From: the human T2T-CHM13v2.0 reference genome, Homo sapiens
DNA length: 64,000 bases
Assembly (NCBI RefSeq): GCF_009914755.1
Contig: NC_060928.1
Reading direction: 5' to 3' (one strand)
The notes under the pieces were generated by a model, which worked only from the letters and a program-made list of their open reading frames with translations, was not told where the DNA came from and ran no database searches. Positions 1,510 through 62,105 of this stretch are shown here, piece after piece; position 1 is the stretch's first letter; each line of letters starts with the position of its first letter. A program made the translations under genes and the position numbers.

Positions 1510-5000
<3,491 letters not shown>

Positions 5001-5059
5001 TTGTTTGTTTTATTTTTATTTTTTAGAGACAGGGTTTAACTATGTTGGCCAGGCTGTAG

Positions 5060-5765
5060 TGGGAATGTAAACTAGTACAACCACTAGTGAAAACAGTATA
5101 GAGATTACTCAAAAAGCTAAAAATAGAACCACAATTAAATCCAGCAATCCCACTAGTGGTTATCCATCCAAAGAAAAACAAATTAATATATTAAAGAATA
5201 CTGGCACTCATATGTTTATTGCAGCACTATTCACAATAGGAAAGATGTGGAATCACATCTTTCACATTAAACCTGTGTTTCAATTATAAGTTCCCAGAAA
5301 GAGATGAATCAATAAAGAAAATTTACGTGTACATATTAGAATACTCTTCAGTCATAAGAAAGAATGAAATTATGTCATCTGTGGCAACATAAATGTAACT
5401 GAAGATCATTATTTTAAGTGAAATAAACCAGGCGCAAAAAGACAAATACCACATTTTCTCACTTATTTGTGAGCGCTAAAAAATCTGATCACATGGAGGC
5501 AGAAAGTGGAAAGATGGAGAAAAGAGACTGGGAAGGGTGAGTTAGGGGAAGGAGGGAAGAAGATAAGTAGGTTAAAAGGTACAAACATGCAGTAAGATGG
5601 AATAAATTCAATGTTTGATAACAGAGTAGGGTGATGGTAGTTTAACAAAAATATATTGTATTCAGGAGATAGGCACTCTAAATATGCTGATTTGATCACT
5701 AGACATTATATATTTTAACAAAATTTGACATGTATCCCATACGTTTGTACAAATAATAAATAAAT
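5060..5765 (+). mobile_element. L1MA-type 3' end (ORF2 tail and 3'UTR)
   Basis: gggaatgtaaactagtacaaccact..., ccagcaatcccacta, gcagcactattcacaatag and aagtgaaataaaccaggc, ending in A-rich aaataataaataaa. Confidence 0.85.
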
Positions 5766-5806
5766 GCATAGATACACAGAAAGATTAAATGAGTTAATGC
5801 ATGTCA

Positions 5807-6200
<394 letters not shown>

Positions 6201-8241
6201 TAAAGATGGTATGTAATAGAGAGGCTGATGTGCCAATATAGATTTGGGAGGTTAAGTGAAGCCACTACCTCGGTATACTTTGGGAAGAACGTGCAGAAGA
6301 AGAAAATAGTCCCAATTCCAGAATAATAAGAAATGAAAAGTGGAAAACTCAGGATATAAAAGAAGATCTAGTAAGAGAGACTGAAAAACAATCTAAAGGA
6401 GAAGAGCAAAAACAAAGGTAATGTTAAATTCAAGGGAAGAATTCCAGAGATCTGTCCACTCTTGCATATCAGAAAGGGAGATATAATAAAGGATTGGTGA
6501 TTGCGAAGCAGTGCTGGAATTCTAGATGAGATAAGAATTCATAAATCTGCAGATTTTTCCCCAGATTCACTGTAAGTTTTATGTTCTTACAATAATATAG
6601 AAGTACATTAAACCTGTGTTTCAATTATCATGAGGCTAAAAAAAAAACCTGGCTTAACTCTGATTTAAAAAAATTGCCATTTGGATTCATACTGTTATTT
6701 AGATTAGTGAAATCTTCCATCTTCATCTTATAAATTATATGCTATTATGGTTTCTGGTTATAGCATAGGGATTTTTACTCCATGGAAAATAAAATCAGTA
6801 GAGCTACATTACAAACAAGTATACCAGTTGATCTTTGAAATGTGAAGTTTCTGATACAATCATGAAGAAAAGGATATTTAAGTAGGAAACTGTAATCTAC
6901 CTTTGTGTTCCTTTTAACTTTTGTCACAGTGTCACTGTGGTCATGACTCCCAAGTGGCAAGATTATTAATCTCTACTTGATAAAAACATGTTGCCAGAGT
7001 CAAATTTGTATGAAACCAAGGGAGATTCTAAAATTCATATTTCTCTACTTCATGTTTCATAGATAAAAAGATTTGTGTTGATCACTAGGCTAGAAAAACA
7101 ACTGTTTTCTCCTAATTCTGTTTACATGTAAAGTTTACTTTCAAGTGGGCTTGCTTTTGAGCTAAAATAGTCTTTTCTATTATACTAACCATAAGTCACT
7201 TTAGCTTGAGCTGTTATAAAATATTAAATCAATTTTAATTATTCTCCCCTAAGGGTATAAGACTAAGATATTTCTTTTCACATTTTAAACACATTCATCA
7301 TATTAAGCTTGATATATTAATGTATAACGAACTTGGAGCTTGTTTCCAATATTGGATCAATGGGCTGGAAATAGACAAACTTTCCCTTCCTCCCCAGTGA
7401 TCTGGGCAGCAGCAACCTTGGTCTCAGCTAGAGATATATGGTGATTCTCTTGGAGATTTTACTAATTTTTCCATCAAGGACTTTTTGATGTGCAAACCAT
7501 TGGTTACATGACTTTTATAAGTGTCTCCTTCCTTAAAATATTCAAGTATATACTTTATTGATTTAGAAAATATTGATGATCCCAAAAGAGTGGGTAGTGA
7601 ATGAAAAACAATATTCTTGACTTCCAGGAATGTTTAATAGAAATTGTTGGCTTCCTTCCCTGACTTAATTCCTGCTAAGATGCCGCACTGAGATTTGTCT
7701 GTCTATGCCTATGATGGGAATGATTGGACACTGGTTTACTGGTTTGCTGTGAAGGCAGATCCCATAGGTTTTCATAGGTTTTTTTTTTTTAAATTTTTAC
7801 CTATATAAGATCATTTAGAAAATAATATAACACAATGATTAACACCTCATGATTGATGTCAAACAGATCTCTCCAAATCCAGAATTTGCCACTCATTATG
7901 ATTTTTTTAACCTTCTAAGTCTAACGCATGGCATGTCTGAGGACAAATAAAAAATAAAGGCTATTAGTCCTCTATTTTGGTTCTACTTTCATAGCACATA
8001 ATATAGCATTCTGATATGCCACGTCATTTAATGCCGACCTTAGAAAGGATTATAGCAGTTAGAAATGAGAAAAATCGAGTAAGAAATGTGCTGACATCTT
8101 TCATTTCATATCATCTGCTGATGTCGACAGATAATTGAGCACTCTCTATGTGCCAGGAAAAGCTGTAGGTAGTGATATCAAGCTTAGTATTTCCATAAAT
8201 GAAGTTAACATTGAAGATGAACACTTGAAATTGAAGTTCCT

Positions 8242-17056: not shown

Positions 17057-18800
17057 TGAGAGGTGACAGCGTGCTGGCAGTCCTCAGAGTCCTCGCTTGC
17101 TCTGGGCACCTCCCCTGCCTGGGCTCCCACTTTGGCGGCATTTGAGGAGCCCTTCAGTCCCCCACTGCACTGTGGGAGCCCCTTTCTGGGCAGGCCAGAG
17201 CCCACTCCCTCAGCTTGCAGGGAGGTGTGGAGGGAGAGGCGCGAGCGGCAACCGGGGCTGCGTGCGGCGCTTGCGGGCCAGCTGGAGTTCCGGGTGGGCA
17301 TGGGCTTGGCGGGCCCCGCACTCGGAGCAGCAGGCCAGCCCTCCTGGCCCCGGGCAATGAGGGACTTAGCACCCGGGCCAGCGGCTGCGGAGGGTGTACT
17401 GGGTCCCCCAGCAGTGCCGGCCCACCGGTGCTGCGCTCGATTTCTCACTGAGCCTTAGCTACCTTCCCACGGGGCAGGGCTCGGGACCTGCAGCCCGCCA
17501 TGCCTGAGCCTCCCACCCCCTCCGTGGGCTCCTGTGCGGCCAAGCCTCCCCGACGAGCACCGCCCCCTGCTCCAGGGCGCCCAGTCCCATCGACCACCCA
17601 AGGGCTGAGAAGTGCGAGCACACGGCTCGGGACTGGCAGGCAGCTCCACCTGCAGCCCCGCTGCCGGATCCACTAGGTGAAGCCAGCTGGGCTCCTGAGT
17701 CTGGTGGGGACCTGGAGCGTCTTTATATCTAGCTCAGGGATTGTAACTACACCAATCAGCACCCTGTGTTTAGCTCAAGGTTTGTGAGTGCACCAATCGA
17801 CACTCTGTATCTAGCTGCTCTGGTGGGGCCTTGGAGAACCTTTATGACTAGCTCAGGGATTGTAAATACACCAATTGACACTCTGTATCTAGCTCAAGGT
17901 TTGTAAACACGCCAGTCAGCACCCTGTGTTTACCTCAAGGTTTTGTGAGTGCACCAATCCACACTCTGTGTCTAGCTGCTCTGGTGAGGACGTGGAGAAC
18001 CTTTATGTCTAGCTCAGGGATTGTAAATACACCAATCGGCACTCTGTATCTAGCTCAAGGTTTGTAAACACACCAATCGGCACCCTGTGTTTAGCTCAAG
18101 GTTTGTAAACACACCAATCAGCACCCTGTGTTTAGCTCAAGGTTTGTGAATGCACCAATCAACACTCTGTATCTAGCTGCTCTGGTGGGGCCTTGGAGAA
18201 CCTGTGTGTCGAAACTCTGTATCTAACTAATCTGATGGGGATGTGGAGAACCTTTGTATCTAGCTCAGGGATTGTAAACGCACCAATCAGCGCCCTGACA
18301 AAACAGGCCACTCCCGGCTCTACCAATCAGCAGGATGTGGGTGGGGCCAGATAAGAGAATAAGAGCAGGCTGCCCCAGCCAGCATTGGCAACTTGCTTGG
18401 GTCGCCTTTCACACTGTGGAAGCTTTGTTCTTTCGCTCTTTGCAATAAATCTTGCTACTGCTCACTCTTTGGGTCCACGCTGCTTTTATGAGCTGTAACA
18501 GTCACTGCGAAGATCTGCAGCTTCACTCCTGAGCCCAGTGAGACCACGAGCCCACCAGGAGGAATGAACAACTCCAGACGTGCTGCCTTAAGAGCTGTAA
18601 CACACCGCGAAGGTCTGCAGCTTCACTCCTGAGCCAGCGAGACCACGAACCCACCAGAAGGAAGAAACTCCGGACACATCTGAACATCAGAAGGAACAAA
18701 CTCCAGACGTGCCACCTTAAGAGCTGTAACACTCACCGCGAGGGTCCACGGCTTCGTTCTTGAAGTCAGTGAGACCAAGAACCTACCAATTCCGGACATA
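17057..18800 (+). mobile_element. LTR12C (ERV9) solo LTR
   Basis: Starts TGAGAGGTGACAGCGTGCTGGCAG, has a CpG-rich U3 and tandem CACCAATC/ctagctcaagg repeats, and ends ccaattccggacata. 4-bp TSD ttat (17053-56 / 18801-04). Confidence 0.97.
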
Positions 18801-20552
18801 TTATGTCTAGCTGTATTGTGCAGAAGTCCATAAAGTACTAGATAACTACTTTACTTCTAAGATATATATACCCCACGGTGTGTTCACCAACTGGAATTTC
18901 TCCAGGTTCTATTTTGACACAAAATGTCCTTTACCACTTGGGTCTGGCCTCTGAATTGTGGCTGTCTTAGCAGTCCAGAAACTATAGTAATTTGGTGAAC
19001 AAATCATGTGCAAGAGAAGTTTAAGATGGCATTGAATTAAAATAAAATTAATATTAGTATAAAGGTAGTTGAGGGAAGTGGAGCTATAAAAATCCTTTAT
19101 ATTTTTCACTTTAACAACCTATTTTCAAGGATGGAAAGCCAAGATGATAAACTGGTCTTTAAAACCTGGAGAGTTATTACTGGTGTCAGGCTGGAAACAA
19201 CATTTATTGACTGCCCATGAAAATATCAACCTGGTACCATTCCTGATAAAAGGGTCTAGGGCACAGAATTGGTAGGTCCTAGAGGCAAAGTGTGCTAATC
19301 TGCTTTGCTAATTAAATTCTGAGATTTTAACAGATTAAAAATGGCAGGATTTCCTAGTGTATTGCAAAATGACAATACATGCACACACAGAGTATTGGAG
19401 AGTAAGGGTAACATATTTTTATAGATACTTAAAGTTCATTGGAATACGGGTAAGCTTGTATATATTTGTACTATATTTAATGTTAACATATAAATTAAAT
19501 ACTATTAAAATAATTCAAAGGGCCAAAAATATACTTTTCCACAAGTCTCTGAGATAAATATTCTGCTAACCTAAAATTGGCTGGAACTTAAATACTTGGG
19601 GGCAGATAGAAAAAAATATAGTCAAAGGATTTCAGGATGCAGTTTCATGGAACTTTTACTAAATATGTTTTCTGAAGTTGTTTCCTTTACAAATAGTTCT
19701 TGCAATGCTGTACAGCAATGATTGTTGAAAAATTCTTCCTTATTTTGAGTTGAAAGAGTATCCTTTGTCTTTCATTACCCTTGGAATAGCACAAAATGGC
19801 TTTTTTGTTCCTTCTACCATTTTGTAATTACCAATTTTCAAGTTTGATATCTACTGGTTCTTCCAGGAAAGGTGAGTAAAAGGGGAAGAAAAGCAATTTG
19901 CAGTTATTTAAGAAGTAATGCCTGAAATAATGGACACTTAGTTTGTAATTCTGAGTTTACAACTCAGTGGGAGGTCACTAAACTTTAAAATGACCATGTT
20001 AACTTAGTAAACAGATCTTATTTATTTAAAATTGCCACTCTACTACATATTAACATTGTATCCTTGATCAGGCAATTTAACTGCAGTCTCTCTTTCCTTA
20101 TCTGTGAAATGAGGTTTACCAACATTCATCATAGATATTTTGTGATGTCAGATGAAATGATGGATGTAAATTTATAGCAGAGAAACTTACAAAATATGTT
20201 TCATTTAAGTTAACAATAAGCTATCATTTTGGTTAATTGTACTTTTTTTGTTTTTGAGATAAGTTAGACATCTTTTTTTTTTTTTTTGGGGGGGGTTTAA
20301 TTTTTTTTTTTTTTTTTTTTTTACTTTTTAATTTTCTTTTTTTTTTTATTATACTCTAAGTTTTAGGGTACATGTGCACATTGTGCAGGTTAGTTACATA
20401 TGTATACATGTGCCATGCTGGTGCGCTGCACCCACTAACGTGTCATCTAGCATTAGGTATATCTCCCAATGCTATCCCTCCCCCCTCCCCCAACCCCACC
20501 ACAGTCCCCAGAGTGTGATATTCCCCTTCCTGTGTCCATGTGATCTCATTGT

Positions 20553-23321
<2,769 letters not shown>

Positions 23322-23324
23322 TTA

Positions 23325-24390
<1,066 letters not shown>

Positions 24391-25859: not shown

Positions 25860-26372
<513 letters not shown>

Positions 26373-27036
26373 ATACATATACAAATACATATACATGTAC
26401 ATATACATATACACACATTCCTTAATCTTCCTAAGAAGATGTTATAAGGTAAGGACTCACTCTACTAAAGCACAGAGGATTTCAGTAACTTCTTCAAAGT
26501 TATTACACAGTTATTTTATGTGAAGTGAGATCTCACCTAACTTTAAAACCCATGTATTCCAGCTGCTATGGCTGTATTACAAAGCACCTTAGAACTTTAG
26601 TGGCTTAAAACAATGCTCAAATTTATTTTGCTCACAAGTCTGCAGCTGGGGCGTGATCAAGTAAAATGTTGCTGCTTTCCATTTTTCTGCCTTCAGGTGA
26701 CATTCACTCCCAATGGTTGACTGAGTCAGGGTATAAGGCTATCCTGGTCTCAAGAGGAGTAACTCTGCAGTGTGGTTTATGCTCCAGAACCCTCCCTCTG
26801 TGCAGGCCAAGCCTGGGGTATAGCTCAGGACACATCTTTGTTTGTTTCCTCCCTCTTTCCTATTAGACTTCATTTCCTGATAGATTTGTTCAAGAGTTCT
26901 CCTTCAGTTAATCACATGCTCCGATTCGCTGTCTTGGGCTCTCTGTCTAGGAAATCCAATCCAAGACATGGGTTTAAATTGCATGTAAAAGATCAAGAAA
27001 ATGAAATTATTAAAATAGATAAAGCAATAAACAACT

Positions 27037-27336
27037 TTTCTCACTGGTAGCTTTTTCCAGGTATTGTATTAGTTCTTCCCTAATGTTAATTAACTTGGCT
27101 CTAGAGATACATTTTTTTTTTTTGGATTTTCCAAGGTTTTATTAGAACATGTTCTTCACAATGCTTGCATTGCTTTTGTTGTGATCTGTGTACAAAAATC
27201 CAGGTGCTTGATTATCTCTTGCACAATTTGTCCATGTAAATTAATTTTTCTTCTAGCCTCTTTTTTCACACGTGAAGCACAGGACACACTTTTTAAGAAA
27301 AAAAACGTCCTTGCCTCTCTCAGCATCAACAACAAT
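27037..27336 (-). pseudogene. CYCS: Highly diverged intronless cytochrome c pseudogene (CYCS-derived retrocopy)
   Basis: The minus-strand translation across frameshifts reads DAERGKDVFFLKKCVLCFTCEKRG*K / NLHG / QAPGFLYTDHNKSN / LENPKK / CISRAKLI / REELIQYLEKATSE. This is colinear with cytochrome c GDVEKGKKIF..KCSQCHTVEKGGK..NLHG..QAPG(F/Y)SYT(D/A)ANKNK..LENPKKYIPGTKMI..RADLIAYLKKATNE. No intron at the CYCS codon-56 position. Confidence 0.9.
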
Positions 27337-28469
27337 TGGTATCAGAGACCCACCCCAAGCATGTATTTAGACAGCTTTCTGTGGACTCTGCACCTTTATA
27401 TGTGAAGTAGAGGCTGAATTTACATTATTTCACAATGTCAAATAATACTGGATGATTCAAATAGAGTTTGAAAATAAATTGAAAAATTTAGAAAATTAAG
27501 TTTACGAAACATGTAATGTGTATTTGTAGAATCCAGAAGATATTTCCCAGAATGAAGAGGCAAGAGAAAGAACAAAGCGGAGACTCAATATAGATGTATG
27601 TAATAGCATATAATTTCATTTGTCTTTTACTCTGAGGAAATATTTAAGTAGATAAAGGTTTCCTAACTCCTTGCATGTTCTCTGTCATTCTAATGTTTAT
27701 ATTCACCAGGGCCAGGAAGCCAGTCACTTCTCCCACCCACAGAGCATCTCACAATTCACAGCAAGACACTCTGAGAAGGCACCAGCACACAGAACCCCCT
27801 ATTAAAAATCCAGCATCACTGATTCAAAGTGCCTATTCTTTTCTAAGAGCCGGAAAAAATTATTTTGTGTAAAATGTATTTTAAACTTCACTTTTCTTAA
27901 GAGAGTCAAGGCAAAGGAAGAAACTAATGATAAATAACATCCATAAAGACTGAATGACAGTATTTTAAAGCTTTAGTTTAGACTTATATTCTGAAACAGT
28001 AATTTTTTAACTCACAAAATGAATTTCATCAGTGACAGTATTTCACATCTCCCAGTTACATTTGTACTTTGAAAGAATATTTTTTTAACCTATAAAGTGG
28101 CCGAACTTCGGAACTTTATTGAGCCAAAAATCTTTTTATGAGTAAGTCCTACTTAAAAAAGAACAGAAAGAGTTATGGGAAAATATGGGGATAAAGTCAC
28201 AGATGTACAAACCTTTTTTGCTATTTTAAAAGAACCAAAATAAATAAAAATAATTCAAAGAGGAAAAAATAGCAAAAATTAAGCCTAATGTTAAAAGCGT
28301 AGTTTGGAAGAAGAAATTTTGGCAATTAATGAAAAGTCCATTTATCCACCCATCCAAAAATAATCTGGTGAGTGGACAAGATTCCAGTAACTAGAAACGG
28401 GAGGACTGGGAGTGGGTATAGGCAAGCCAGAATAAAAAGGTCTAGCATGCTTTCTAGGCCAGTCAGGTG

Positions 28470-28678
28470 GCGTGTGGTGGGATTTGTTCCATAGGGGATA
28501 TTCAGCAAATCTGGAGATGTATTTGATAGTCATACTGGGGACAGGGAGGGCACTAGTTATGTGTAGTAGAGATCAAGGATGCTATTAAATCCTACAATAC
28601 ACAGGAAGGTTCCCCTCCTCCAGCAACAAAGAGTCATCTGATCCACAATGTCAATAGTGTGAAGGTTGAGAAAACCTG
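28470..28678. mobile_element. MER20 (hAT-Charlie) relic
   Basis: aatctggagatgtatttg, agagatcaaggatgctattaaatcctacaatacacagg and aatgtcaatagtg..ggttgagaaaacctg. Confidence 0.75.
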
Positions 28679-28759
28679 TTTTAGGCTAAACTCTTTGTCC
28701 CACCAAAAAAGAAAAAAAACATATTATGAAGAAACATTACTGTATTCAGAAAAATAAAG

Positions 28760-30370
28760 ATCATACAAATGCTTGCTTTCTTTTCTGAATTCAGCCATTT
28801 ACCAAATTAGATTTGAACTCTGGGTTCAGAATCAGAACCATGTGATTCAAATATGAGATCATCACAAGTGGACCAAATTATTTCAGAAATAGACATCGAT
28901 CGTATTATACATTTGACCCATTTCTATTCCTGTTATCATGACATTGCTGTGCTTCATTGGGTCACTGCTTGCTCCATTGCTTCTGTGGTAGGGAAAATTT
29001 TTCTAGGTCAGCCAATTGTATACCTTTAGTAGCCTCAGAGGGGACCCCTTCAAAGATGATGGTGTAATTATACCAATACATTTCCTCCCAGGTCAAATTT
29101 ATCTCTGAGTTTTTCCCTGTTGTTTCTATCTCCTTTATGGTGGAGTGTGTACGTTTTTAAGAATTTCCCAGAATAACATTGGGTGGAAATTTCCCTAATT
29201 TATTTCCTAATTTCTTATTAGTGGTGGTCTTAGTAGAACTGGGTGGGGAAACTTATTCAGAGAACATCTAGACTTCTCCATATGATTAAGTATATTTGTA
29301 TATATTAAACAAATTAAATATATTTTTGTAAGAATTCCCTTGGCTGTAATATCCAAGAGCTCTGGTTGATTCTGTGGGAAGCCAGTGTTGCAATTGTAGA
29401 GAATTTTTTCCTTGAGAGTTATGTAAAACTTGCAGTTGGTATTTTCAGGTTAGAGAACAGTTCCCAAGATGGTTGTAGTCCCTGATTTTTGAGACATGCT
29501 TTGGCCCAGGTAATATTATGTTGTATACATCATGTTCCTTATATATATCTATTGATAAGTGATCAGGAATGAGGCCCATGGTCAGGTACGCTTGGTCTGT
29601 TAGTGCAATTTCTTTCCACCTCAATAAATGAGTCTTGCACTGGAGTGGGGGAGATCAATATAACTAATAGGAAAACGGCCAATATTTGTAAAGGCTTACA
29701 TTGTTGGCAGACTTCACATTTATAATCATCCCAGGGATTGGAATGAGGTATAGTTTTGTCTATCTCTGTAATCCCAGAGGGTATGTTGGTATTGCCTCTG
29801 GATTTTTAGTTTAATTGCACCAATCATGAGCTTCATGGTTGTAACATTGGGTACACATTATTGCTGGGCACTCTTCAAATGAGACTCAGTAGGTAGTGGC
29901 TCTTTTTGTTTGAAGGCACTAGTTAATTAGAGTGAGTTTTGTGTGATTTGGAGTAAAAGTTGGCCCAAAGATAGTTTAGAAGACATTTAGGAGTCTCATG
30001 CTGAATTTTCTACAGTTTATAGCCTGCTACTTACTGTCTCAAATGTTATTTAATTTTGGTTCACCTTGATGTTAATTTTAATGGGCTCTTTGTTTGACTT
30101 AATTTGTTGTATGTCTGTCACATTCTCCATTATGGAACTTAGAAAACATTTTTCATTAGCTTCTTTAAAAAGTGTTTTTAGGTAAGAGTAGTTTATTCCA
30201 AATATTTGGTTCATTTCTTCTCTGATCTTCTGTAGCAATCTTGTCCCCTTCCCATGGACCCTATGCTAAGTACTGTTTATTTTTCCATTTCTATTTCCTA
30301 TGTGCTTTTAGAACAGTAATCTCATTGGATTCTCTGAAACACTTAGAGTAGCAAGTCCTTAACCACATTC
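28760..30370 (-). pseudogene. env: Candidate endogenous foamy-virus-like env (SU region) fossil, decayed by stops and frameshifts
   Basis: Ordered peptide matches to remembered prototype foamy virus Env: LLQKIREEM, QCYNHEAH..KNPEAIP, PIPG, WKEIALTDQAYLTMGLIPDHL, NITWAKAC, LFWEI, TWE, FPY..W-x10-CHD, RCLF, FGKMA. Many NxS/T sequons are present. Aligned by eye only. Confidence 0.6.
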
Positions 30371-32654
30371 ATTAAAGTTAACGGATAACAGGATTAATCA
30401 TGTGCTTAAAAGTAAAAGAAAAAAAACCAACAAGATTACATGAAATAATTACATGATTATATAATAAACCTTTTGTGTAAAATAATAGAAATAAAATTAA
30501 TAATTATTTTGCTCAGTCTATGTAGTTATTTGAGAAGAACAAGTACACGTAAATAATATTTAACAAGCAAGGATATATTAAAATTTGTGACAAAATGCTA
30601 AGAAAACAGGAAATTAAACTAGCAAATTTCAAAAACTGGAATAAGGCAGGCTTCTTTTGTGGGGAAAAAAATAAAATAACTTAGAGGGCAAAATAGTAAA
30701 GAGAAAGCCAGAACAGTGGGACTCAAGCTGCAACATCCTGTAGAAAACCTTGCCTTATTAAGCTAATTGGTTTCTGTTTGCCTCTTCACTTGTCCCCAGG
30801 TGCTTTCTTGCTCTGCTCCACAGGTGGTCCCAGTTGTTCCTGGCGGGTGTGAGTGCTCTACTCAGTGTGTAGTGAGTACTCAGTAAAAGCTAACTTCCTA
30901 ACTGCCTGGAGCTGAATTGACTTCCACAACAATGCCATAGAATTGCTAAAAAGGGAATACAGCCAGGTGGCTCACCTCCTCTTCCCTCTATTATCTGAGA
31001 TCTTTTATTGGTTTATACAGTGTGAGTGTGGCCAATTGAAATTATCAAAAGCAAAGGAGGAATGCGCCAGTTCTTATTAAGAAAATTAAAAACAAAGCAT
31101 CTTTCTCATTCTGCCTTTACATCTATTTATATTATGTTATACACTATCTCCACTGCAAACATAAATTTTCAAATAATAATAATATAAAGGTTGGATGACT
31201 GTCTATTTTACTATCAATTGTAAGTATATTTTTTTTTAATTTGGCATTCTGTTAAATTTCATGATTTAAAAAAAATGTTGTTTGGAGAATTCATTGGTAT
31301 GCTCAAAAGATAATCTCCACAGAATTCATCTTGTGAATAGAATTATTTTCAAAGAAGACTACTTCCTGATGCTACACTATAAAAAGATTTGGGTATTACA
31401 CAATGTATATTGGCTCTTGTACATGGACTTCAGGGTATAGAATTGATATTATGCAAAAATTTGATTTTTGAGAATGAGCGCTTACAAATAAATAGATTTA
31501 TATTTCACTTTTTCTAGATATCTAATACTACGTATAAATTATCTTTTTAGGATCCTGAAAAACAACTTTAATCGGGGTTATACTGTGTTAAGGTAAGTGC
31601 CCATGAGTTTACTTCATGTAGTTCAAATATAGTATTTTTACTCTCAGTCAAAAAACATTCTTTAATCATGAATATCTTTTATTTTAATCTTTTATTTTTA
31701 TTGTGGCTATAGATTATAAAATAACTTATGATAGAAATTTTATGCAGTGAATTTTTAGGTCTCCTAGCTACCTTATTTGATGTTCCAAAAATGTATTCTA
31801 TATTCGAGTACTGCAAACACCATCTAGATAGAAGTCTTCTTAGAATAGAAACAGATTGTTTGACATTTGGTTGTTCTTTATTTCGATAAAAGTGGTGCAT
31901 GGAGAAAAGTTTAGCTTTAAAAAAAATTGGCAAGTGAGTTTAGAAAAAAGTTGATTTGGCTCAAGGGTTTGGTCAAATTTAAGTATTAGACAAAAAAGCT
32001 GGGATTGATAATAGAAATAGCAAGAGGTTATTTTCTTCATTTCACCAGTGTTTATAAAAAGATCAGTTTTCACACCGGTACTTGCTGAACAAAAATTAAT
32101 AACTTCACACATTCCATTTACTCCAGGAAGGAACCACAGAAGCCCAGTGTTTCTGAAAGTGGGGTTCTACCAGCTCTGTACTATTTAATAATAAGATAGT
32201 ATATAAATTTGAGTGCAAATTCAACTTTTGGGTATCCCAAAGAAACTAGAGCTAATAGCTAAATAAATAAATGTTTCAATACCTTAGATGATTTTAACAA
32301 AATTTATTCAGCTGGTTGAAAAAATTGCTGGGCACATTGTAGCTAAGGTTTCCAAAATGTAATTGGGAATGTCAAAACGAATCATAACAAAATGTACAAC
32401 TGTGCAGATTTATGCTTTGTACCAGACATTCCTAATGCATGGAATAGTTACAGAGAAAAAGACTTCAGTGTCAGTTATGAAATTGTAAGTGGAGGAAAAT
32501 TCATTTCTTTATTCCTTTATGATAGCACATTCTAATGGCTTTAGCTATATGAGAGCATTTTTAACATAAAGGCCATGATTTATATGAACCATGCATGAGT
32601 CTGGAATGAAAAAAGGTAATTTTCAATATGCTAATGCTATGCTGTACTGCCTAG

Positions 32655-32952
32655 AACACAACGATCCAATAGAAATATAATGTAAGCCTTACATTGGAAT
32701 GTAAAATTTTCTAGCAGCCACATTTAAGAGTAAAGAAAAATCGGTGAAATTAATTACAATGTCATATTTTATTTAATCTGTCATATCCCAAAATATTATT
32801 TTTTCAACATATAATGAATATAAAATAATTATTGAGATATTTTACACTTTTTTGTACTTCTAAATCTAGTGTATATATTCCACTTACAGTACATCTCAGT
32901 TTGGACTAGCCACATTCAGGTGCTTTATAGCCACATCTTGGATAATATGGGC
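32655..32952. mobile_element. MER33/MER3-type hAT relic
   Basis: ccaatagaaatataatg, aaaattttctagcagccacatt, ggtgaaattaatt and tttggactagccacatt...gccacat. Confidence 0.75.
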
Positions 32953-33034
32953 TTAGAAAAATACCTATATTACCTCTTGAATTGAATTTAGTAGAATAAT
33001 TATCTTCATAAAATCATGTGTATCTATTAGATTC

Positions 33035-33449
33035 TTAAAAGACAAAAGTACAACAAACCTAGTTTTGCAGATCTTAATTGGCTTGTATCTGCAATTCCAG
33101 AATCGGACAGCAGTCAGGACCAAAAATCATTCAGAATGTTCCACCTCACAAGTGCAGGTTTTATTTATAGCCAGGGACAAGGAAGTGACATACAAAAAGC
33201 AGAAGTGAGGTACAGCCAGATTAATCGGTTAAAGCTCAGCATTTGCCTTAATTGAATGTGGTTTGAACAGCCTGCTGGCTGCCATGGACTGAAGCTAGGC
33301 TGCAGTGATTGGCTGAGACTCAGCTATTTGTTATAAAGGCAAATTCCAAAGATAAGTTTTCAGCTTTTTTATATACCAGCTTAGGTTGCAGTTTATTTAG
33401 GAGGACTTGTACTGAAGCTTCTAAAGCTCAGACTTAGTTCAATTTAACA
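33035..33449. mobile_element. ERV1-class solo LTR (MER57/MER72/MER93 group)
   Basis: aaaagacaaaagtacaacaaa..gatcttaattggc..agaatcgg, gtgattggctgagactcagctatttgtta; ends ttcaatttaaca. Subfamily uncertain. Confidence 0.6.
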
Positions 33450-36379
33450 ACAACAATTATTAAAATTAGAAATTTAGTCATATAGCTGGGATATATCTCT
33501 GTGATACTTAGGTATTGATTCTTCAGAATCAACATTTTTCAAATGAAAATGCCTTATTTGTTTACAAAAGATGAGAATTGAAATGTATAATTTCTGAGTA
33601 TCATTTTTATATCAACGAATTAATATTATAAAAAACTTTTCTCTCCAGTGTAAATTAGTTGTCTCAATATATTTTTAATGCATAAAATGGATATATGGTC
33701 AAACATTTTTATGGGAGACTATGCCTATGATTGAAATTTTATGAATCTACGTGTGTCTCCTCTGTTTTACCAACACTGAAGCTCTGTAGCATCCATGCTC
33801 CAGGAGCACTAAACAGTTAGTTTATTTATTTGCTCCTTTTCTGTCACATTATCTTATCTTACTGAATGACACTCTAATCCCTTAACTTGTCTGTCACCCC
33901 ACACCATGAGATAATGAGCTGACCTCTCTCTGAATATGTAGTCTAAGTCAGATATAACACTGAATATTTGCTAGTGGGAAAAGTGGATAATGGGCATGTT
34001 CAAGAGATAGGCAATATACTTGGACAGGGACAAAGTAAATGTGGGTGGTCAAATACTCTCTCCCTCAGGGAAGTGCCCAGCAGGAGGGAGAAATCCTGAG
34101 TACTTGTTTAGATCACCTTAATGACCATTAATCAACGGGTTTGGCTAAAAACAAACAAACACACACCCCAATCCTAAATAGTTATCCTTGGTATAAGGAA
34201 AGGGAACTTGAGACAGCTGATAGCACATTCTTCATCACATGGTTAAGGTTCACAGGTCAAATTTATTAAGTTAATTTGATTGACAATGATTAAGTTCTTA
34301 AATTCAAAAGTTTAGAATCACCATAAACCCACGATACTATTATTTCATGTAAACATGCTCATTTTGTCCCAATAGTGCAGATGTCTGCTGTTAACCATTT
34401 TAATTGCTGTTATATTTTAAGTGTTTGTACATTATTTGAAAGTGTAAGTATGCTATTATTTTATGGTTTATTAAGCACAAAGCACACACATTCAGTCATA
34501 GTTGTAATGCATGGGTCAAGAATCAATACCCTCATTTTGAAAGTGATAATTATTCTTCCCTGTTATCTATTCCAAAGCAGAATGAAATGAAAATTAGTGT
34601 CAGCCCTTGAAAAGCAAGCATTATGGCTTGAAAAAGTAACAGTTAATGCTATACCTAAATAAGAAAAATGTATGGTAGTGCCATATTAAAATGTGCATTG
34701 AAGGAATGTATTAACTGTCCATTTCAAGTCATAACTAATAAAATTAAAATATAAAACATAAAGGTAATTTTATTATGAAGCAACACTATTTATTTGTCCC
34801 ACAAATTTACTAGTATCTTTGATATGTGTTTATTAACAAATTGCATATAGTGAAACTACCATATGAGAAAAGAATTAACATCAACTAATAGGTATCACAA
34901 ATGCATTAATGGTATATACACTCATAAAAATCGAGGCTAACTTATCTATCATAAGAATAAAATATTTGCAGTTTAGCTTCTAAATAGAAAAAATCTCAGA
35001 GAAATTGTTTGAAATATATCATAATGTTTTAAACCTGTGTCTGTCTCATGTCCCAATTTCACCAGGGTCCTCAGAGCTGCATGAGTCTTACCTGTAAAGA
35101 GGACCCAGAGGCTCACAACATGAAATGACTCTGGGATGTGTAAAAAGCATTGATCTACAAGAGACATTGAAATCATTTAGTATAAAACCTTCACTTTATG
35201 GATAAAGAACAGTAGGTAATTTTTGCCAAATTACATGCCTTTACACTCACAAGGTCTACATTCATTTTTTTCTGTTAAAGAATAATTTCACATTTCCTTT
35301 GGGAAATTTGTCCCTCTGTTATCAATACGCGTGTTTCTTGGTGGCTAAACTACCCAGCTAAAGAAAAGGAATATAATTAATTGCCTTAAGTCATTTCTCT
35401 GGCCACAGTGGTTTAACTAAGCAGAGGCATATTTTGTAACAGTGATAGCCAGAATCAGGTCTGTTGTCTTACTTTCCGTTAAAAGGAAAATTCTCTCTTT
35501 TTCTACTGGGCTTCAGGTTATGAATATGTAAGACCTGAAGTTCTTGTGGTCATAATGCAAATATGCAGGGGAGAACTAGTTTGAGAAGGAGGACAGTATT
35601 GAATTGCTGATGCTGCAGGTATTCATTAGTCCAACCACTGCTCCATGAGGCCGCCCTGCCCCCGGTGTGTTTGGCTCCAGTCCCATATACTGACTTTCTA
35701 ATAAGGAGAGGAAATCCATTTTGTTTTTGACTTATTAGAGTTTGAATTTGGCTTTTTGTCACTTTCAGTTTCAAGAGTCTTAGTTGATTAAGTATGTTAA
35801 AAATTACAAATATTTCCAAGGTCGAGGTCTTAAAATGGCCCCAAACTTAATTGTATGTTGGGGCTCAGTGTAGGAACCAGAATCTTGTTTCCTAGCTTTC
35901 AGTTTACTGTTTGTGCCCCTATAAAATGTTGTATTCCTCAATTATCTTGGAAGCTTCTGGACAATGGAATGTTGGCTACATAGGGAGTTTTGCCATGGCA
36001 CCTGGGTGTCAGGGTTTAATTCAGTTCATCTATTGATCGTACCTTTACTAAAAGGAGAAGATATCCATGGAATCCCAAAATGATATCTAAAAAGTAGATT
36101 TTTGAGGATCTTCTGGAATTAAAAGTACCTTTTAATATGAAGGGAACAATAGTAGACTAAGAAATAAAAGACAAATTCAGAAACTTTATGAATGTGTAGT
36201 AAGAGAAAAAATTTTAATCTTTATAAACTATTGAGATTTGGAGGTTTTTATTATTACATCATATTTTAGCTTAAACCGACGACTCAGAAAATGAAATGTC
36301 CAAAACTGAATCCCTCTATCTTCTCTGAAAAATTTTTACAACGTATCTCGGCTGTATGTCACGTTATTTAATATGGAGT

Positions 36380-48185: not shown

Positions 48186-50667
48186 AATACTGAGAATCTT
48201 TAAGATCAGAAATTGTGTGATTCACTATTTCCAGGGAGTAAACTCTAGTCTTTCATCAAAGTAGAAAGTGAGTAAGTGCTTGTTTATCTGTCTTGAGGGG
48301 AGACATCTGAAGATGTAACTGCTTGCCATACAAACTTTCCAACAATCTTTCCTATAATCAGTTCCAGACACACTTCCTGCCTTGTGAGATATCTGACTTT
48401 TCCAAACCCTGAGCCTTCCTTCTATTCTGCACAGTGAATCAGCCTACTTTAATTCTGTCTCTTTGTGGTTTTCAGTTTTGCTCACGTAACTAGTCTAGTT
48501 GTCTATTAACTTTTTAACTTACAAGATGTAGTTAACAGCTCTTGTTTGTTCTGTCTTGTTGTTTTTTCCCTTGTGGATTTGCAATAGTTTTTTTAACCTC
48601 TTCACTGTCATTTTTGGGGAGGTTTTAGCAGATTCTAGAGGCACCTGTGTATTTAGCATTCCATGCAAGACCAGAAATTTAAATTGACTATTAACCAATG
48701 GAATAGTAACTCTCAATTAAAATATGATCATTGTATTACCACCTCTGAGTTTATTTATTCTATTTAAGGAATGGATTAATAAATCACTTTCTACCTGCAA
48801 ACATCAATATGAAATAATTTGTGCAGCTACTGCTGGTTTATTCTGGATAATCTGAGGGCGTGTATTTTAGAGGTACTTAAACACATACTTATTTTAGAAT
48901 GTTTCACACATATATCACTTATACACATCCACTTACACATATACTCATTCAATTACCGTTACAAATCACATTTATTGAGTGTCTCTGACTACTTGGATCT
49001 TGGACTATGCACTGTGAATGCAGAGATTGATAAGGTGCAATTTTTGTCTTCAAGGATATCACAATTTAGCAGGGTTCCTACATGTGTAGAAATAATTTGG
49101 ACACTAGAACTCAGGTATCAAACAAACTTTACACTTTAGAACACTGCAGAGAATCAGAAAGCAATAAAAAGCTTTTATAAACTAAAACAGTTCCCATGTT
49201 GTTCATAAATTAAAGCCTAAATAATGTGTTCATAGGCGTTCTATGCCCTCACGTGGATTGCATAGCCCCACATTGTAGATTCAGTTCTAGCAAGTTTAAT
49301 TGTACGATTTCCCAGAATGCATAATATTTAAAGTAGCAAGTAACAAATGTAGACTATAGCTAAAAGGCAAGGAAGCTGGCACTAGTATGAAATGATGCCT
49401 AGCTCTGAGGCAATATACAAATAGTACCCACGACAAGCAGTGTTAGTGTAGTTAAAGGCTGGGTATAAGTCCTGGTTCTGCTAGCTACTTATAAAGTAGC
49501 CTCGAATGAGTCACATTAACTCTGTAAGCTTCAGTTGCTTTGTCTGCAAAACTAGGAAAATAGTCACACTGACAGTCTAGAGTTCTTGAAAGAATTGAAT
49601 AAAAGAATACATGTAAAACAATAAGCACAATTTGTATTAAGTATTAATACAAAAATTACCCTCGGTATTTAAAACTCAATGAATTTTATGCAAGAGATTG
49701 TTTACATGGTGATAGAATAGTTGAGAAGCCAAACAGAAAAAGAGACATTGAAGCAACCCAGGGGTCAGCCACAGCAGAAAGTGCCTATTAGAGATGCAAA
49801 GCAACTGTAACTCAGGAGCCTGAGTTGCCCAGAGAGAGGCAGGATAGAAGAACACAGGCACTGTGGGAGAAAGAGATATGCTCTAGTTTCTCTTTTCTTC
49901 CACCACCCAGTCCCTCACCAGTGCCTCCCATAGATTGAATCCCGCTGAAGCCCACTGATCTCAGAACCTGGGACATTCAGACTCAACATCATCCACTCCA
50001 TACTACAGAGCAGAGCAGAACAGGAGCCAGTGAGGAATGATTTGTGGGCAAACCCACCCAGGACCAGAACAGGCACTCACAACACAGCCATGTTACCCAC
50101 CCTAAACAGAGGACTACTGAAACTACTAAATATTCAGACTCAAGACGTACCAAAAAAAATCAGCACTTAAAACAATAAATTTAAACTTATGCAGGAATCT
50201 TTGCAAACTGAAGTTGAACACTCCATTAAAGTTTCTGTAAAGTTTGTGAGAGGTGTGTGTGTGTGTGTGTGTTCGGAGAGACAGAGAGAAGAACAAGTGA
50301 GTACCTCCCAGGGTCTCCTCAGGCCACACTGAAAGTCTCTTTTCTATTCGGCTATAGCACATCATACTCATTACTATGGCCAAAACATTGCACTGTTTTT
50401 TCACACATGTAATACTTGTACTATATATGGGGTACAGATATTTAGATAAATATTTAGATATTTAAGATATTTAGATAAATGTGTGTCATGTGTAATGATC
50501 AAATCAGAGTAATTAGCACATGCATCACCTCAAGTCTTTATATCTTTGTTTTGCAACATTCAAAATTCTCTACTTTAGCTATTTAAAGATATATAATAAA
50601 TTATTAACTATGGTCACCCTACAGTGCTATAGATCACTAGAACTTCTATTTCTTCTATATAATTTTC

Positions 50668-56810
<6,143 letters not shown>

Positions 56811-60900: not shown

Positions 60901-61024
60901 ACCCTACACTGAGGCTGGCAGCCTGTTTTTCAGAAGTATGCCTTCACTGATGCACTCTAAAACCACAAGAAGTTAATTGCTTATCTGCTTCCATTTTTGT
61001 GCCAGTTTCACTTATGAAGTTAGG

Positions 61025-62105
61025 TGTTGTGGGAAGTCAGGGACCCCAAATGGAGGGACCGGCTGAAGCCATGGCAGAAGAACGTGGATTGTGAAGATTT
61101 CATGAACAATTTATTGGTTCCCCAAATTAATACTTTTATAATTTCTTATGCCTGTCTTTACTGCAATCTCTAAACATAAATTGTGAAGATTTCATGGACA
61201 CTTATCACTTCCCCAATCAATACCCTTGTGATTTCCTAGGCCTGTCTTTACTTTAATCTCTTAATTCTGCCATCTCGTAAGCCGAGGAGGATGTATGTCG
61301 CCTCAGGACCATGTGATAATTGCGTTAACTGCGCAAATTGTAGAGCATGTGTGTTTAAACAATATGAAATCTGGGCACCTTGAAAAAAGAACAGGATAAC
61401 AGCAATTGTTCAGGGAATAAGAGAGATAAACCTAAACTCTGACTGCCAGTGAGCCGGGCAGAACAGAGCCATATTTCTCTTCTTTCAAAAGCAAATGGGA
61501 GAAATATCACTGAATTCTTTTTCTCAGCAAGGAACATCCCTGGGAAAGAGAATACATGCCTGGGGGTAGGTCTATAGACGGTCCCCAGGGTGTGGCCATG
61601 TTTTATGATCTGTAGACTGTAGGGGTGAAATAGACCCCAGTCTCCCATAGCCCTCCCAGGCTTATTAGGAAGAAGAAATTCCCGCCTAATAAATTTTGTC
61701 AGACCAGTTGCTCTCAAAACCCTGTCTCCTGATAAGATGTTATCAATGACAATCGTGCCCGAAACTTCATTAGCAATTTTAATTTCGCCGCCCTGGTCCT
61801 GTGGTCTTGTGATCTCGCCCTGCCTCCATTTACCTTGTGATATTCTATTACCTTATGAAGTATGTGATGTCTGTGACCCACACTCTATTCGTATACTCCC
61901 TCCCCTTTTGAAACTCCTTAATAAAAACTTACTGGTTTTACGGCTTATGGGGCATCACGGAACCTACTGATACGTGATGTCTCCCCCAGACACCCAGCTT
62001 TAAAATTTCTCTCTTTTGTATTCTGTCCCTTTATTTCTCAAACCCGCCTACACTTAGGGAAAAGAGAAAAGAACCTACGTGACTATCGGGGCAGGTTCCC
62101 CGATA
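61025..62105 (+). mobile_element. MER11 (HML-8, MER11C/B-like) solo LTR
   Basis: Starts TGTTGTGGGAAGTCAGGGACCCC and ends ggcaggttccccgata; 6-bp TSD gttagg (61019-24 / 62106-11); AATAAA at ~61920. Confidence 0.95.

What the first reader, a model, noticed from the sequence alone, without database searches (positions are those of the whole stretch)
28760..30370. Candidate endogenous foamy-virus-like envelope gene fossil in a human-like genome
Seen in sequence: a non-repeat-looking, strand-asymmetric 1.6 kb tract. Its minus-strand peptides, joined across frameshifts, run in this order (prototype foamy virus Env, recalled from memory, in brackets). LLQKIREEM at 30238 [LLTEMVNEEM]. QCYNHEAHDWCN*TKNPEAIP at 29849 [KCYQEFANCYLVKYKEPKPWP, ungapped]. 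PIPG..SLYKYW at 29741 [PLPG..SIWDYY]. WKEIALTDQAYLTMGLIPDHL at 29618 [WTTKSKYGQARLGSFYIPSSL, ungapped, W/Q/A/L/I/P/L identical]. NITWAKAC..NQGLQPSW at 29517 [NVSHVLFCSDQLYSKW, sequon and Cys in register]. LIRN*EIN*G..LFWEI, with LFWEI at 29176 [LPKDWSSQG..LFREI]. WE at 29090, 71 nt after LFWEI [24 codons to WEGDC]. YN..*..FPY..W-x10-CHD at 28993-28935 [YN..W..HPY..W-x10-CRD]. RCLF at 28898 [RCLY]. DS..FGKMA at ~28805 [DS..FGYLA]. Several stops sit where W or Q is expected (TGG/CAG>TAG), and NxS/T sequons are frequent. Established: endogenous foamy viruses are rare in mammals (sloth, aye-aye, Cape golden mole), and the human class III HERV-L lacks env. I know of no described human foamy env fossil, but I cannot exclude a prior annotation. 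Inference: an ancient, divergent spuma-like env integration with a ~90-aa longer segment between EEM and QCY. No gag, pol or LTR is recognisable nearby.
Basis: partly seen in the sequence, partly recalled or inferred. Interest (0 to 1): 0.92.

Follow-up and report, generated by a model that had tools for sequence, protein, structure and literature searches.

The report
Decayed gammaretrovirus-like env fragment, not foamy
The tract is a dead 1.2 kb piece of the envelope gene of a very old gammaretrovirus-like endogenous retrovirus that has other decayed copies in the human genome, so it is an ordinary genomic fossil and not a foamy-virus relic.

Summary
The foamy assignment fails. Window 28783-30009 (core 28828-30008) is a dispersed repeat. 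It matches, colinearly and at 64-70% identity, five other independent loci on chrX and chr1. Those loci share about 10 kb of colinear homology, and one has an LTR-like direct repeat pair. Upstream of the window-homologous part they carry a reverse transcriptase. It matches Moloney MLV RT at E 3e-16, 4e-13 and 9e-8 across three frames, against E 0.005 for a foamy-type PR-RT. Downstream they carry a gamma-type TM motif, LAA.G.VCAL(I)NTSCC, whose only PDB matches are syncytin-2 TM. The Pfam Foamy_virus_ENV model hits neither the window nor the better copies. The window holds only this isolated SU-region fragment. No pol, TM or LTR of the family lies anywhere in the 64 kb, and open frames do not exceed chance. 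Divergence of K2P 0.31-0.39 suggests an age of roughly 70-90 million years. This is an ordinary class I ERV internal fragment. Its Dfam/Repbase name could not be checked here.

The parts
28783..30009 (-). Isolated, 5'- and 3'-truncated fragment of the env (surface-subunit region) of an old class I (gammaretrovirus-like) ERV. The core supported by most copies is 28828-30008.
   Evidence: blastn against seven 10-kb paralog loci gives colinear matches at 64-70% identity (up to 81% for two short pieces of L015), E down to 4e-90. Three copies start matching at 30007-30009. Whole-genome DNA search. tblastx and tblastn protein-level matches. K2P 0.31-0.39.
30010..30370 (.). It is unique DNA with no paralog found, and it overlaps the RefSeq 'enhancer' feature 30209-30757 given in the hub note.
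   Evidence: No match to any family copy. A genome DNA search with 30010-31500 returned only itself: 2 candidates, 1 match.
28483..28701 (.). Unrelated high-copy interspersed repeat lying just 3' of the ERV fragment (family not named).
   Evidence: A genome DNA search with 27400-28800 found 159 first-look candidates. 40 were scored and 39 non-self matches at 69-90% identity all fall on query 100-318.

Best explanation
Window 28783-30009 (minus strand) is a dead internal fragment of an ancient class I (gammaretrovirus-like) endogenous retrovirus. It derives from the part of env that encoded the surface (receptor-binding) subunit. The provirus entered the germ line on the order of 70-90 million years ago. 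At this locus everything except about 1.2 kb of env has since been lost, and what remains has decayed neutrally into stops and frameshifts. It has no coding capacity now. It lies in an intron of the lncRNA LOC105377418, antisense to it. No function is shown or needed to explain it. Shown here: the homology to the proviral copies, the MLV-like RT and gamma-type TM motif of those copies, and the isolation and decay of the window copy. Inferred: that the homologous stretch is SU (from its position between pol and TM), and the age.
For: (1) It is a dispersed repeat. A genome DNA search with 28700-30450 gave 15 non-self pieces on chrX (47.44, 56.87, 57.22, 72.79-72.80, 74.85 Mb) and chr1 (187.53 Mb), colinear over query 444-1604, E down to 4e-61. 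blastn on the fetched loci confirms this.
(2) The copies are proviruses. They share colinear homology over about 10 kb. In the chrX:57.2 Mb copy a direct repeat 7227-7603 / 17842-18225 (70% identity, 10.6 kb apart) brackets the element.
(3) RT is gamma-like. Three frames of L019 align colinearly to MMLV RT residues 46-109, 110-176 and 174-258, with E 9e-8, 3e-16 and 4e-13. The foamy-type PR-RT 7kse reaches only E 0.005 and HERV-K RT 7sr6 only E 0.31. Pfam RVT_1 matches at E 1.4e-6 and 6.8e-4.
(4) Order along L019: RT about 1100-1735, the window-homologous stretch 4713-6012, then TM-like stretches at 6990-7055 and about 7320.
(5) TM is gamma-type. L017 reads LAAEGEVCALINTSCC and the chr1 copy reads LAAKGGVCAL-NTSCCMWV. 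The only 2 of 177,635 PDB sequences matched at E<=10 are syncytin-2 / HERV-FRD TM, aligned on that motif, E 0.41 and 0.49. The same stretch is hit by 7 of 30 class I env loci of this genome in tblastx.
(6) No foamy signal. Pfam Foamy_virus_ENV gave no hit at E<=10 in the 3 window frames or in the L017 SU/TM frames, none at E<=0.1 in the three L019 pol-env frames, and no hit at this locus in the whole-genome scan.
(7) The only further relatives among 1.84 billion proteins are 4 short ORF fragments (99-182 aa), one of which runs into an Alu.
Against: Pfam TLV_coat does not hit the window or the copies. Pfam rve and any Gag model also fail. The SU region has no detectable similarity to the SU of 30 other class I env loci. 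The call that the stretch is 'env SU' therefore rests on position and on weak TM matches that are individually non-significant (E 0.4). The TM motif is clear in 2 copies (L017, L020) and degenerate in L018/L019. The stretch from the integrase core to the fusion-peptide region is about 2.6-2.8 kb after removing insertions. That is longer than I recall for MLV (about 2.0 kb), so something other than SU could also lie there. The family's Dfam/Repbase name was not established, and the age uses a recalled neutral rate.
Confidence: 0.93

Rival explanations
1. One reading: a fossil of a spumaretrovirus-like (foamy, class III) env gene.
For: The pre-TM env region of the family is long, and foamy Env is also long (recalled).
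Against: The same element family carries an MLV-like RT: E 3e-16 against E 0.005 for the foamy-type PR-RT. It also carries a gamma-type CX6CC TM motif, which foamy Env lacks (recalled). PF03408 finds nothing. The strongest recalled match (WKEIALTDQAYL...) lies in a frame that the paralogs show is not the ancestral one. A screen of env ORFs in 247 primate genomes reports a spumaretroviral env ORF only in a tarsier and, before that, a defective ERV only in the aye-aye (PMC13461226, passages seen).
Confidence: 0.02
2. A recombinant element: a class I pol backbone that captured an unrelated or novel env surface domain. On this view the window fragment is not a gamma-type SU.
For: The SU region shows no similarity to other class I SU or to any Pfam model. 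The pre-TM region is about 0.6-0.8 kb longer than in MLV (MLV figure recalled). Env swapping between retroviral classes is documented, for example a class III ERV with a class I env in frogs (PMC8278194, title and abstract in a search listing).
Against: SU domains are generally too variable to align between ERV families, so the lack of similarity is expected. The adjoining TM is gamma-type. No positive match to anything else was found.
Confidence: 0.04
3. Not retroviral coding sequence at all: a non-coding repeat, LINE fragment or cellular pseudogene.
For: There are no open frames beyond chance and no Pfam hit in the window.
Against: The fragment is colinear with LTR-flanked, RT-bearing elements, between pol and TM. 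Protein-level conservation is seen in one specific frame across copies.
Confidence: 0.01

Closest known systems
Class I (ERV1, gammaretrovirus-like) human endogenous retrovirus internal sequences, with gamma-type Env (as in MLV, syncytin-2/HERV-FRD)
   Same: MLV-like RT. LTR-like direct repeats around a roughly 10 kb element. TM with the LAA.GG.C(x5-6)CC region aligned to syncytin-2. A-rich sense strand.
   Different: It is far more decayed than the env loci that Pfam TLV_coat recovers in this genome. None of the 80 listed matches is a copy of this family. The SU region has no detectable similarity to theirs. The pre-TM region is apparently longer. The precise Dfam/Repbase family name was not determined, because no repeat library was on hand.
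Endogenous foamy viruses (SloEFV, PSFVaye, ChrEFV; Pfam Foamy_virus_ENV PF03408)
   Same: An ancient env-derived fossil in a mammalian genome, with a long env.
   Different: No PF03408 match. The pol is not spuma-like. The TM has a gamma-type motif.
HEMO / ERVMER34-1 (ancient class I-derived env on human chr4, recalled; named in PMC13461226 as an env ORF unclassifiable by blastp)
   Same: An old env-derived sequence that standard similarity searches classify poorly.
   Different: HEMO keeps an open frame (recalled), and this fragment has none. No relation between the two was tested, because I had no HEMO sequence from a tool.

Membership tests
Spumaretrovirinae Env (Pfam Foamy_virus_ENV, PF03408) | Significant match to the PF03408 profile | tested here: not met
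   0 families at E<=10 for the three X-read-through window frames and for the L017 SU and TM frames. None at E<=0.1 for the three L019 frames. The genome-wide six-frame scan gave one sub-threshold hit on chr11 (E 0.117) and none in the window, though it used a strict first look.
Spumaretrovirinae Env (Pfam Foamy_virus_ENV, PF03408) | Linked pol groups with spumaviruses / class III | tested here: not met
   The family's RT matches MMLV RT at E 3e-16. The foamy-type PR-RT chain 7kse ('Peptidase A9/RT/RNase H') matches at E 0.005. No formal phylogeny was built.
Spumaretrovirinae Env (Pfam Foamy_virus_ENV, PF03408) | Colinear frameshift-aware similarity to a foamy Env sequence beyond shuffled controls | not testable with these tools
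   No tool supplied a foamy Env sequence, and sequence from memory is not admissible. PDB phmmer of the three window frames gave no Env hit at E<=10. Whether the PDB copy holds foamy Env chains is recalled, not checked.
Class I (gamma-like) ERV with gamma-type Env | RT most similar to gammaretroviral RT | tested here: met
   colinear alignment to MMLV RT residues 46-258 over three frames. All top hits are MMLV/XMRV-type RT chains.
Class I (gamma-like) ERV with gamma-type Env | TM with immunosuppressive-domain-like stretch and CX6CC | tested here: met
   L017 has C-ALINTS-CC and L020 has C-ALNTS-CC (one residue shorter). The motif is degenerate in L018/L019. It aligns to syncytin-2 TM, E 0.41, which is weak on its own.
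Class I (gamma-like) ERV with gamma-type Env | Match to Pfam TLV_coat (PF00429) | tested here: not met
   No hit in the window frames, the L019 frames or the L017 SU/TM frames at E<=10. This is attributed to decay, and the model itself covers SU poorly.
Class I (gamma-like) ERV with gamma-type Env | LTR-gag-pol-env-LTR organisation | tested here: inconclusive
   An LTR-like direct repeat pair was found in one copy, and the RT-...-TM order is shown. No Pfam Gag or rve hit was found. Integrase was seen only by eye in translations and through weak tblastx hits to regions upstream of other class I env genes. The primer-binding site was not resolved.
Class I (gamma-like) ERV with gamma-type Env | The window tract is homologous to the env region of such elements | tested here: met
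A named Dfam/Repbase ERV1 '-int' family | Match to the curated family model | not testable with these tools
   No repeat library was available.

The most novel reading that the evidence does not exclude
This old class I ERV family may carry an unusually long surface domain that cannot be classified by sequence. The distance from the integrase core to the fusion peptide is about 2.6-2.8 kb. It could represent an env lineage not yet described, and this chr4 fragment may be unannotated in standard repeat tracks.
Probability: 0.1. Interest if true: 0.25.

Novelty: already known. Interest (0 to 1): 0.06.

Why it matters
It matters little. A human foamy-like env fossil would have been a notable find, but the evidence puts this tract in the large, well-known class of decayed class I ERV internal fragments. 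The useful outcome is methodological. Paralog searches within the same genome settled the matter quickly.

Tried and rejected
- Pfam scans of the window frames found nothing.
- A Pfam scan of 61 stop-free ORFs of two copies gave only three chance-level hits, E 0.019-0.048.
- Pfam scans of the integrase region and the gag region found nothing.
- PDB phmmer of the three window frames gave only two chance-level hits, E 0.8-1.0.
- A TLV_coat scan of the genome recovered 80 matches from 78 scored candidates (of 2107 first-look candidates), but none belongs to this family. tblastn and tblastx of the family's SU against 30 of those loci showed no SU similarity.
- The search of 1.84 billion protein representatives gave 4 short fragments only.
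- Attempts to delimit the LTR ends and read a primer-binding site were inconclusive, so no tRNA-based HERV name is offered.
- The protein-atlas look-up was not possible for a read-through protein.
- Not attempted: structure prediction of the decayed SU. About a quarter to a third of sites have changed and X stands at every stop, so I judged it would give no usable model.
- L1/LINE origin was considered because of the A-rich strand. It was rejected because the paralogs are RT-bearing elements, one of them bracketed by LTR-like repeats, and the RT is MLV-like.

Full report
**The observation**

I read window 28600-30500 on the minus strand and translated it in three frames. The strand asymmetry is real: the plus strand has negative AT skew over about 28800-30400, and the minus strand of 28783-30009 has A 440, T 332, C 256, G 199.

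The three frames of 28600-30500 carry 33, 38 and 46 stops in 633 codons. In 28783-30009 the longest stop-free run is 80 aa, and 26.5% of 1000 first-order Markov simulations reach that length. Total stops are 70 against 80 +/- 7 simulated. Nothing here is open beyond chance.

**Direct tests of the foamy reading**

- The three frames, with X at each stop, gave no Pfam family at E<=10.
- They gave no retroviral hit among PDB sequences.
- A six-frame scan of the whole genome with Pfam Foamy_virus_ENV (PF03408) gave one sub-threshold hit on chr11 (E 0.117) and none at this locus. That scan used a strict first look and can miss weak matches.
- I could not run a frameshift-aware comparison with a real foamy Env, because no tool supplied one.

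**What the tract is**

A DNA search of the genome with 28700-30450 found 15 non-self pieces at 65-81% identity. They lie on chrX (47.44, 56.87, 57.22, 72.786/72.798 and 74.855 Mb) and chr1 (187.53 Mb), colinear with query 444-1604.

I fetched 10-kb loci around them and ran blastn. Homology in the window runs from 30007-30009 to 28783-28887. The upper bound is the same in three copies, and the lower bound depends on the copy.

The loci at chrX:72.786 and 72.798 Mb carry complementary parts, so I read them as one provirus split by an insertion. The loci at chrX:56.87 and 57.22 Mb are 93% identical duplicates. That leaves five independent copies besides the window's.

The copies share colinear homology over about 10 kb, interrupted by Alus and other insertions. 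In the chrX:57.2 Mb copy a direct repeat (7227-7603 and 17842-18225 of the joined 20 kb, 70% identity) brackets the element like a pair of LTRs.

**Which kind of retrovirus**

Read-through translations of the chrX:57.2 Mb copy match Pfam RVT_1 in two frames, E 1.4e-6 and 6.8e-4. In three frames they align colinearly to Moloney MLV reverse transcriptase:

- residues 46-109, E 9e-8
- residues 110-176, E 3e-16
- residues 174-258, E 4e-13

In one search the chain 7kse ('Peptidase A9/Reverse transcriptase/RNase H') reached E 0.005. I take it to be a foamy-virus PR-RT, because peptidase family A9 is spumapepsin (recalled). HERV-K RT (7sr6) reached E 0.31. The pol is therefore gammaretrovirus-like, class I.

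In the chrX:57.2 Mb locus (L019), RT lies at about nt 1100-1735 and the window-homologous stretch at 4713-6012. Downstream, at 6990-7055, 6 of 30 class I env loci of this genome (fetched) give weak tblastx hits that map to about the SU/TM junction of their envs.

In the chrX:47.4 Mb locus (L017), nt 6922-7017 reads LAAEGEVCALINTSCC. The chr1 copy reads LAAKGGVCAL-NTSCCMWV. This stretch is hit by 7 of 30 class I env loci. Its only PDB matches at E<=10, 2 of 177,635 sequences, are syncytin-2 / HERV-FRD TM, aligned on the immunosuppressive-domain and CX6CC region, E 0.41 and 0.49.

Each of these TM matches is weak alone. Together, and in the right order, they indicate a gamma-type TM. The window-homologous stretch, lying between pol and TM, is by standard retroviral gene order the SU part of env. 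That last step is inference.

The window frame with QCYNHEAHDWCN, PIPGMIIN and SLYKYW aligns to the chrX:47.4 Mb copy with 49 of 124 identities, E 1e-17. The stop after DWCN stands where that copy has Q.

NITWAKACLKNQGLQPSW is matched by the same copy and by two short ORF fragments from the protein library.

The 'best' foamy match, WKEIALTDQAYLTMGLIPDHL, lies in a frame that the paralogs do not support. They read RNCTNQV there, which corresponds to the window's ERNCTNRPS in another frame. LLQKIREEM at 30238 lies outside the element altogether.

**How much of the provirus is in the window**

Only this piece is present. blastn of the whole 64 kb against Alu-free segments of three copies found family homology at 28828-30008 alone. 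The other hits are unrelated repeats that had inserted into those copies. tblastx of 26300-36000 added nothing credible.

Window 30010-31500 has no paralog in the genome. Window 28483-28701 is a different, high-copy repeat.

**Age**

K2P distance between the window fragment and six copies is 0.31-0.39 over 671-1114 aligned sites. A seventh comparison, with L015, gives 0.18 over only 270 sites. The LTR-like pair is 70% identical.

Half of 0.35 at a recalled neutral rate of about 2.2e-9 per site per year gives roughly 80 million years. This is a rough figure, because copies may already have differed when they integrated.

**Negative and limiting results**

- Pfam TLV_coat, rve and Gag models do not hit the copies.
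- The SU has no similarity to the SU of other class I env loci.
- A search of 1.84 billion protein representatives with the chrX SU translation found 4 proteins of 99-182 aa at E 7e-9 to 1e-3. One continues into an Alu, so they look like ORF calls on other copies of the same family.
- LTR ends and the primer-binding site were not resolved.
- The family's curated name is not established.

**Literature**

A 2026 screen of env ORFs in 247 primate genomes reports a spumaretroviral env ORF only in a tarsier. [quoted passage not shown] I ran one literature search and read nothing else. I make no claim that this family is or is not in print.

**Verdict**

This is an ordinary, long-dead fragment of a class I ERV env gene. 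Interest is low.

Noticed in passing
G000 chrX: 47.44, 56.87/57.22, 72.79-72.80, 74.855 Mb; chr1: 187.53 Mb (L014-L020): Four of the five other independent copies found for this env region lie on chrX. This may reflect better survival of long ERVs on X, or it may reflect which candidates the search scored. Only 8 first-look candidates were found.
   Followed up: no
L018 (chrX:56.871-56.881 Mb) and L019 (chrX:57.221-57.231 Mb): Two copies in opposite orientation are 93% identical over more than 7 kb, far closer than any other pair. They look like the arms of a later inverted segmental duplication rather than separate integrations.
   Followed up: no
L019 3665-6990; L017 2868-6560: After subtracting recognisable insertions, the distance from the integrase core (seen by eye) to the fusion-peptide-like stretch is about 2.6-2.8 kb. 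I recall about 2.0 kb for MLV. The family may have had an unusually long SU or an extra region between pol and env.
   Followed up: partly
G000:C11:2717901-2718086 (L001): This was the only genome-wide candidate for Pfam Foamy_virus_ENV: E 0.117, 20.7 bits against a cut-off of 27, profile positions 34-95, inside a 118-aa open frame. It is most likely chance.
   Followed up: no
window 28483-28701: A high-copy interspersed repeat (159 first-look candidates, 69-90% identity) lies just 3' of the ERV fragment. Its family was not named.
   Followed up: partly
window 20305-24352 and 50662-55366: Two stretches are 93-94% identical to a repeat beside the chrX:74.85 Mb copy (L014 1-3990). They coincide with the long masked blocks in the hub note. 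I presume they are young L1 copies.
   Followed up: no
window 61021-62091: This stretch is 84% identical to an insertion inside the chr1 provirus copy (L020 3396-4438), so it is another, younger repeat family.
   Followed up: no
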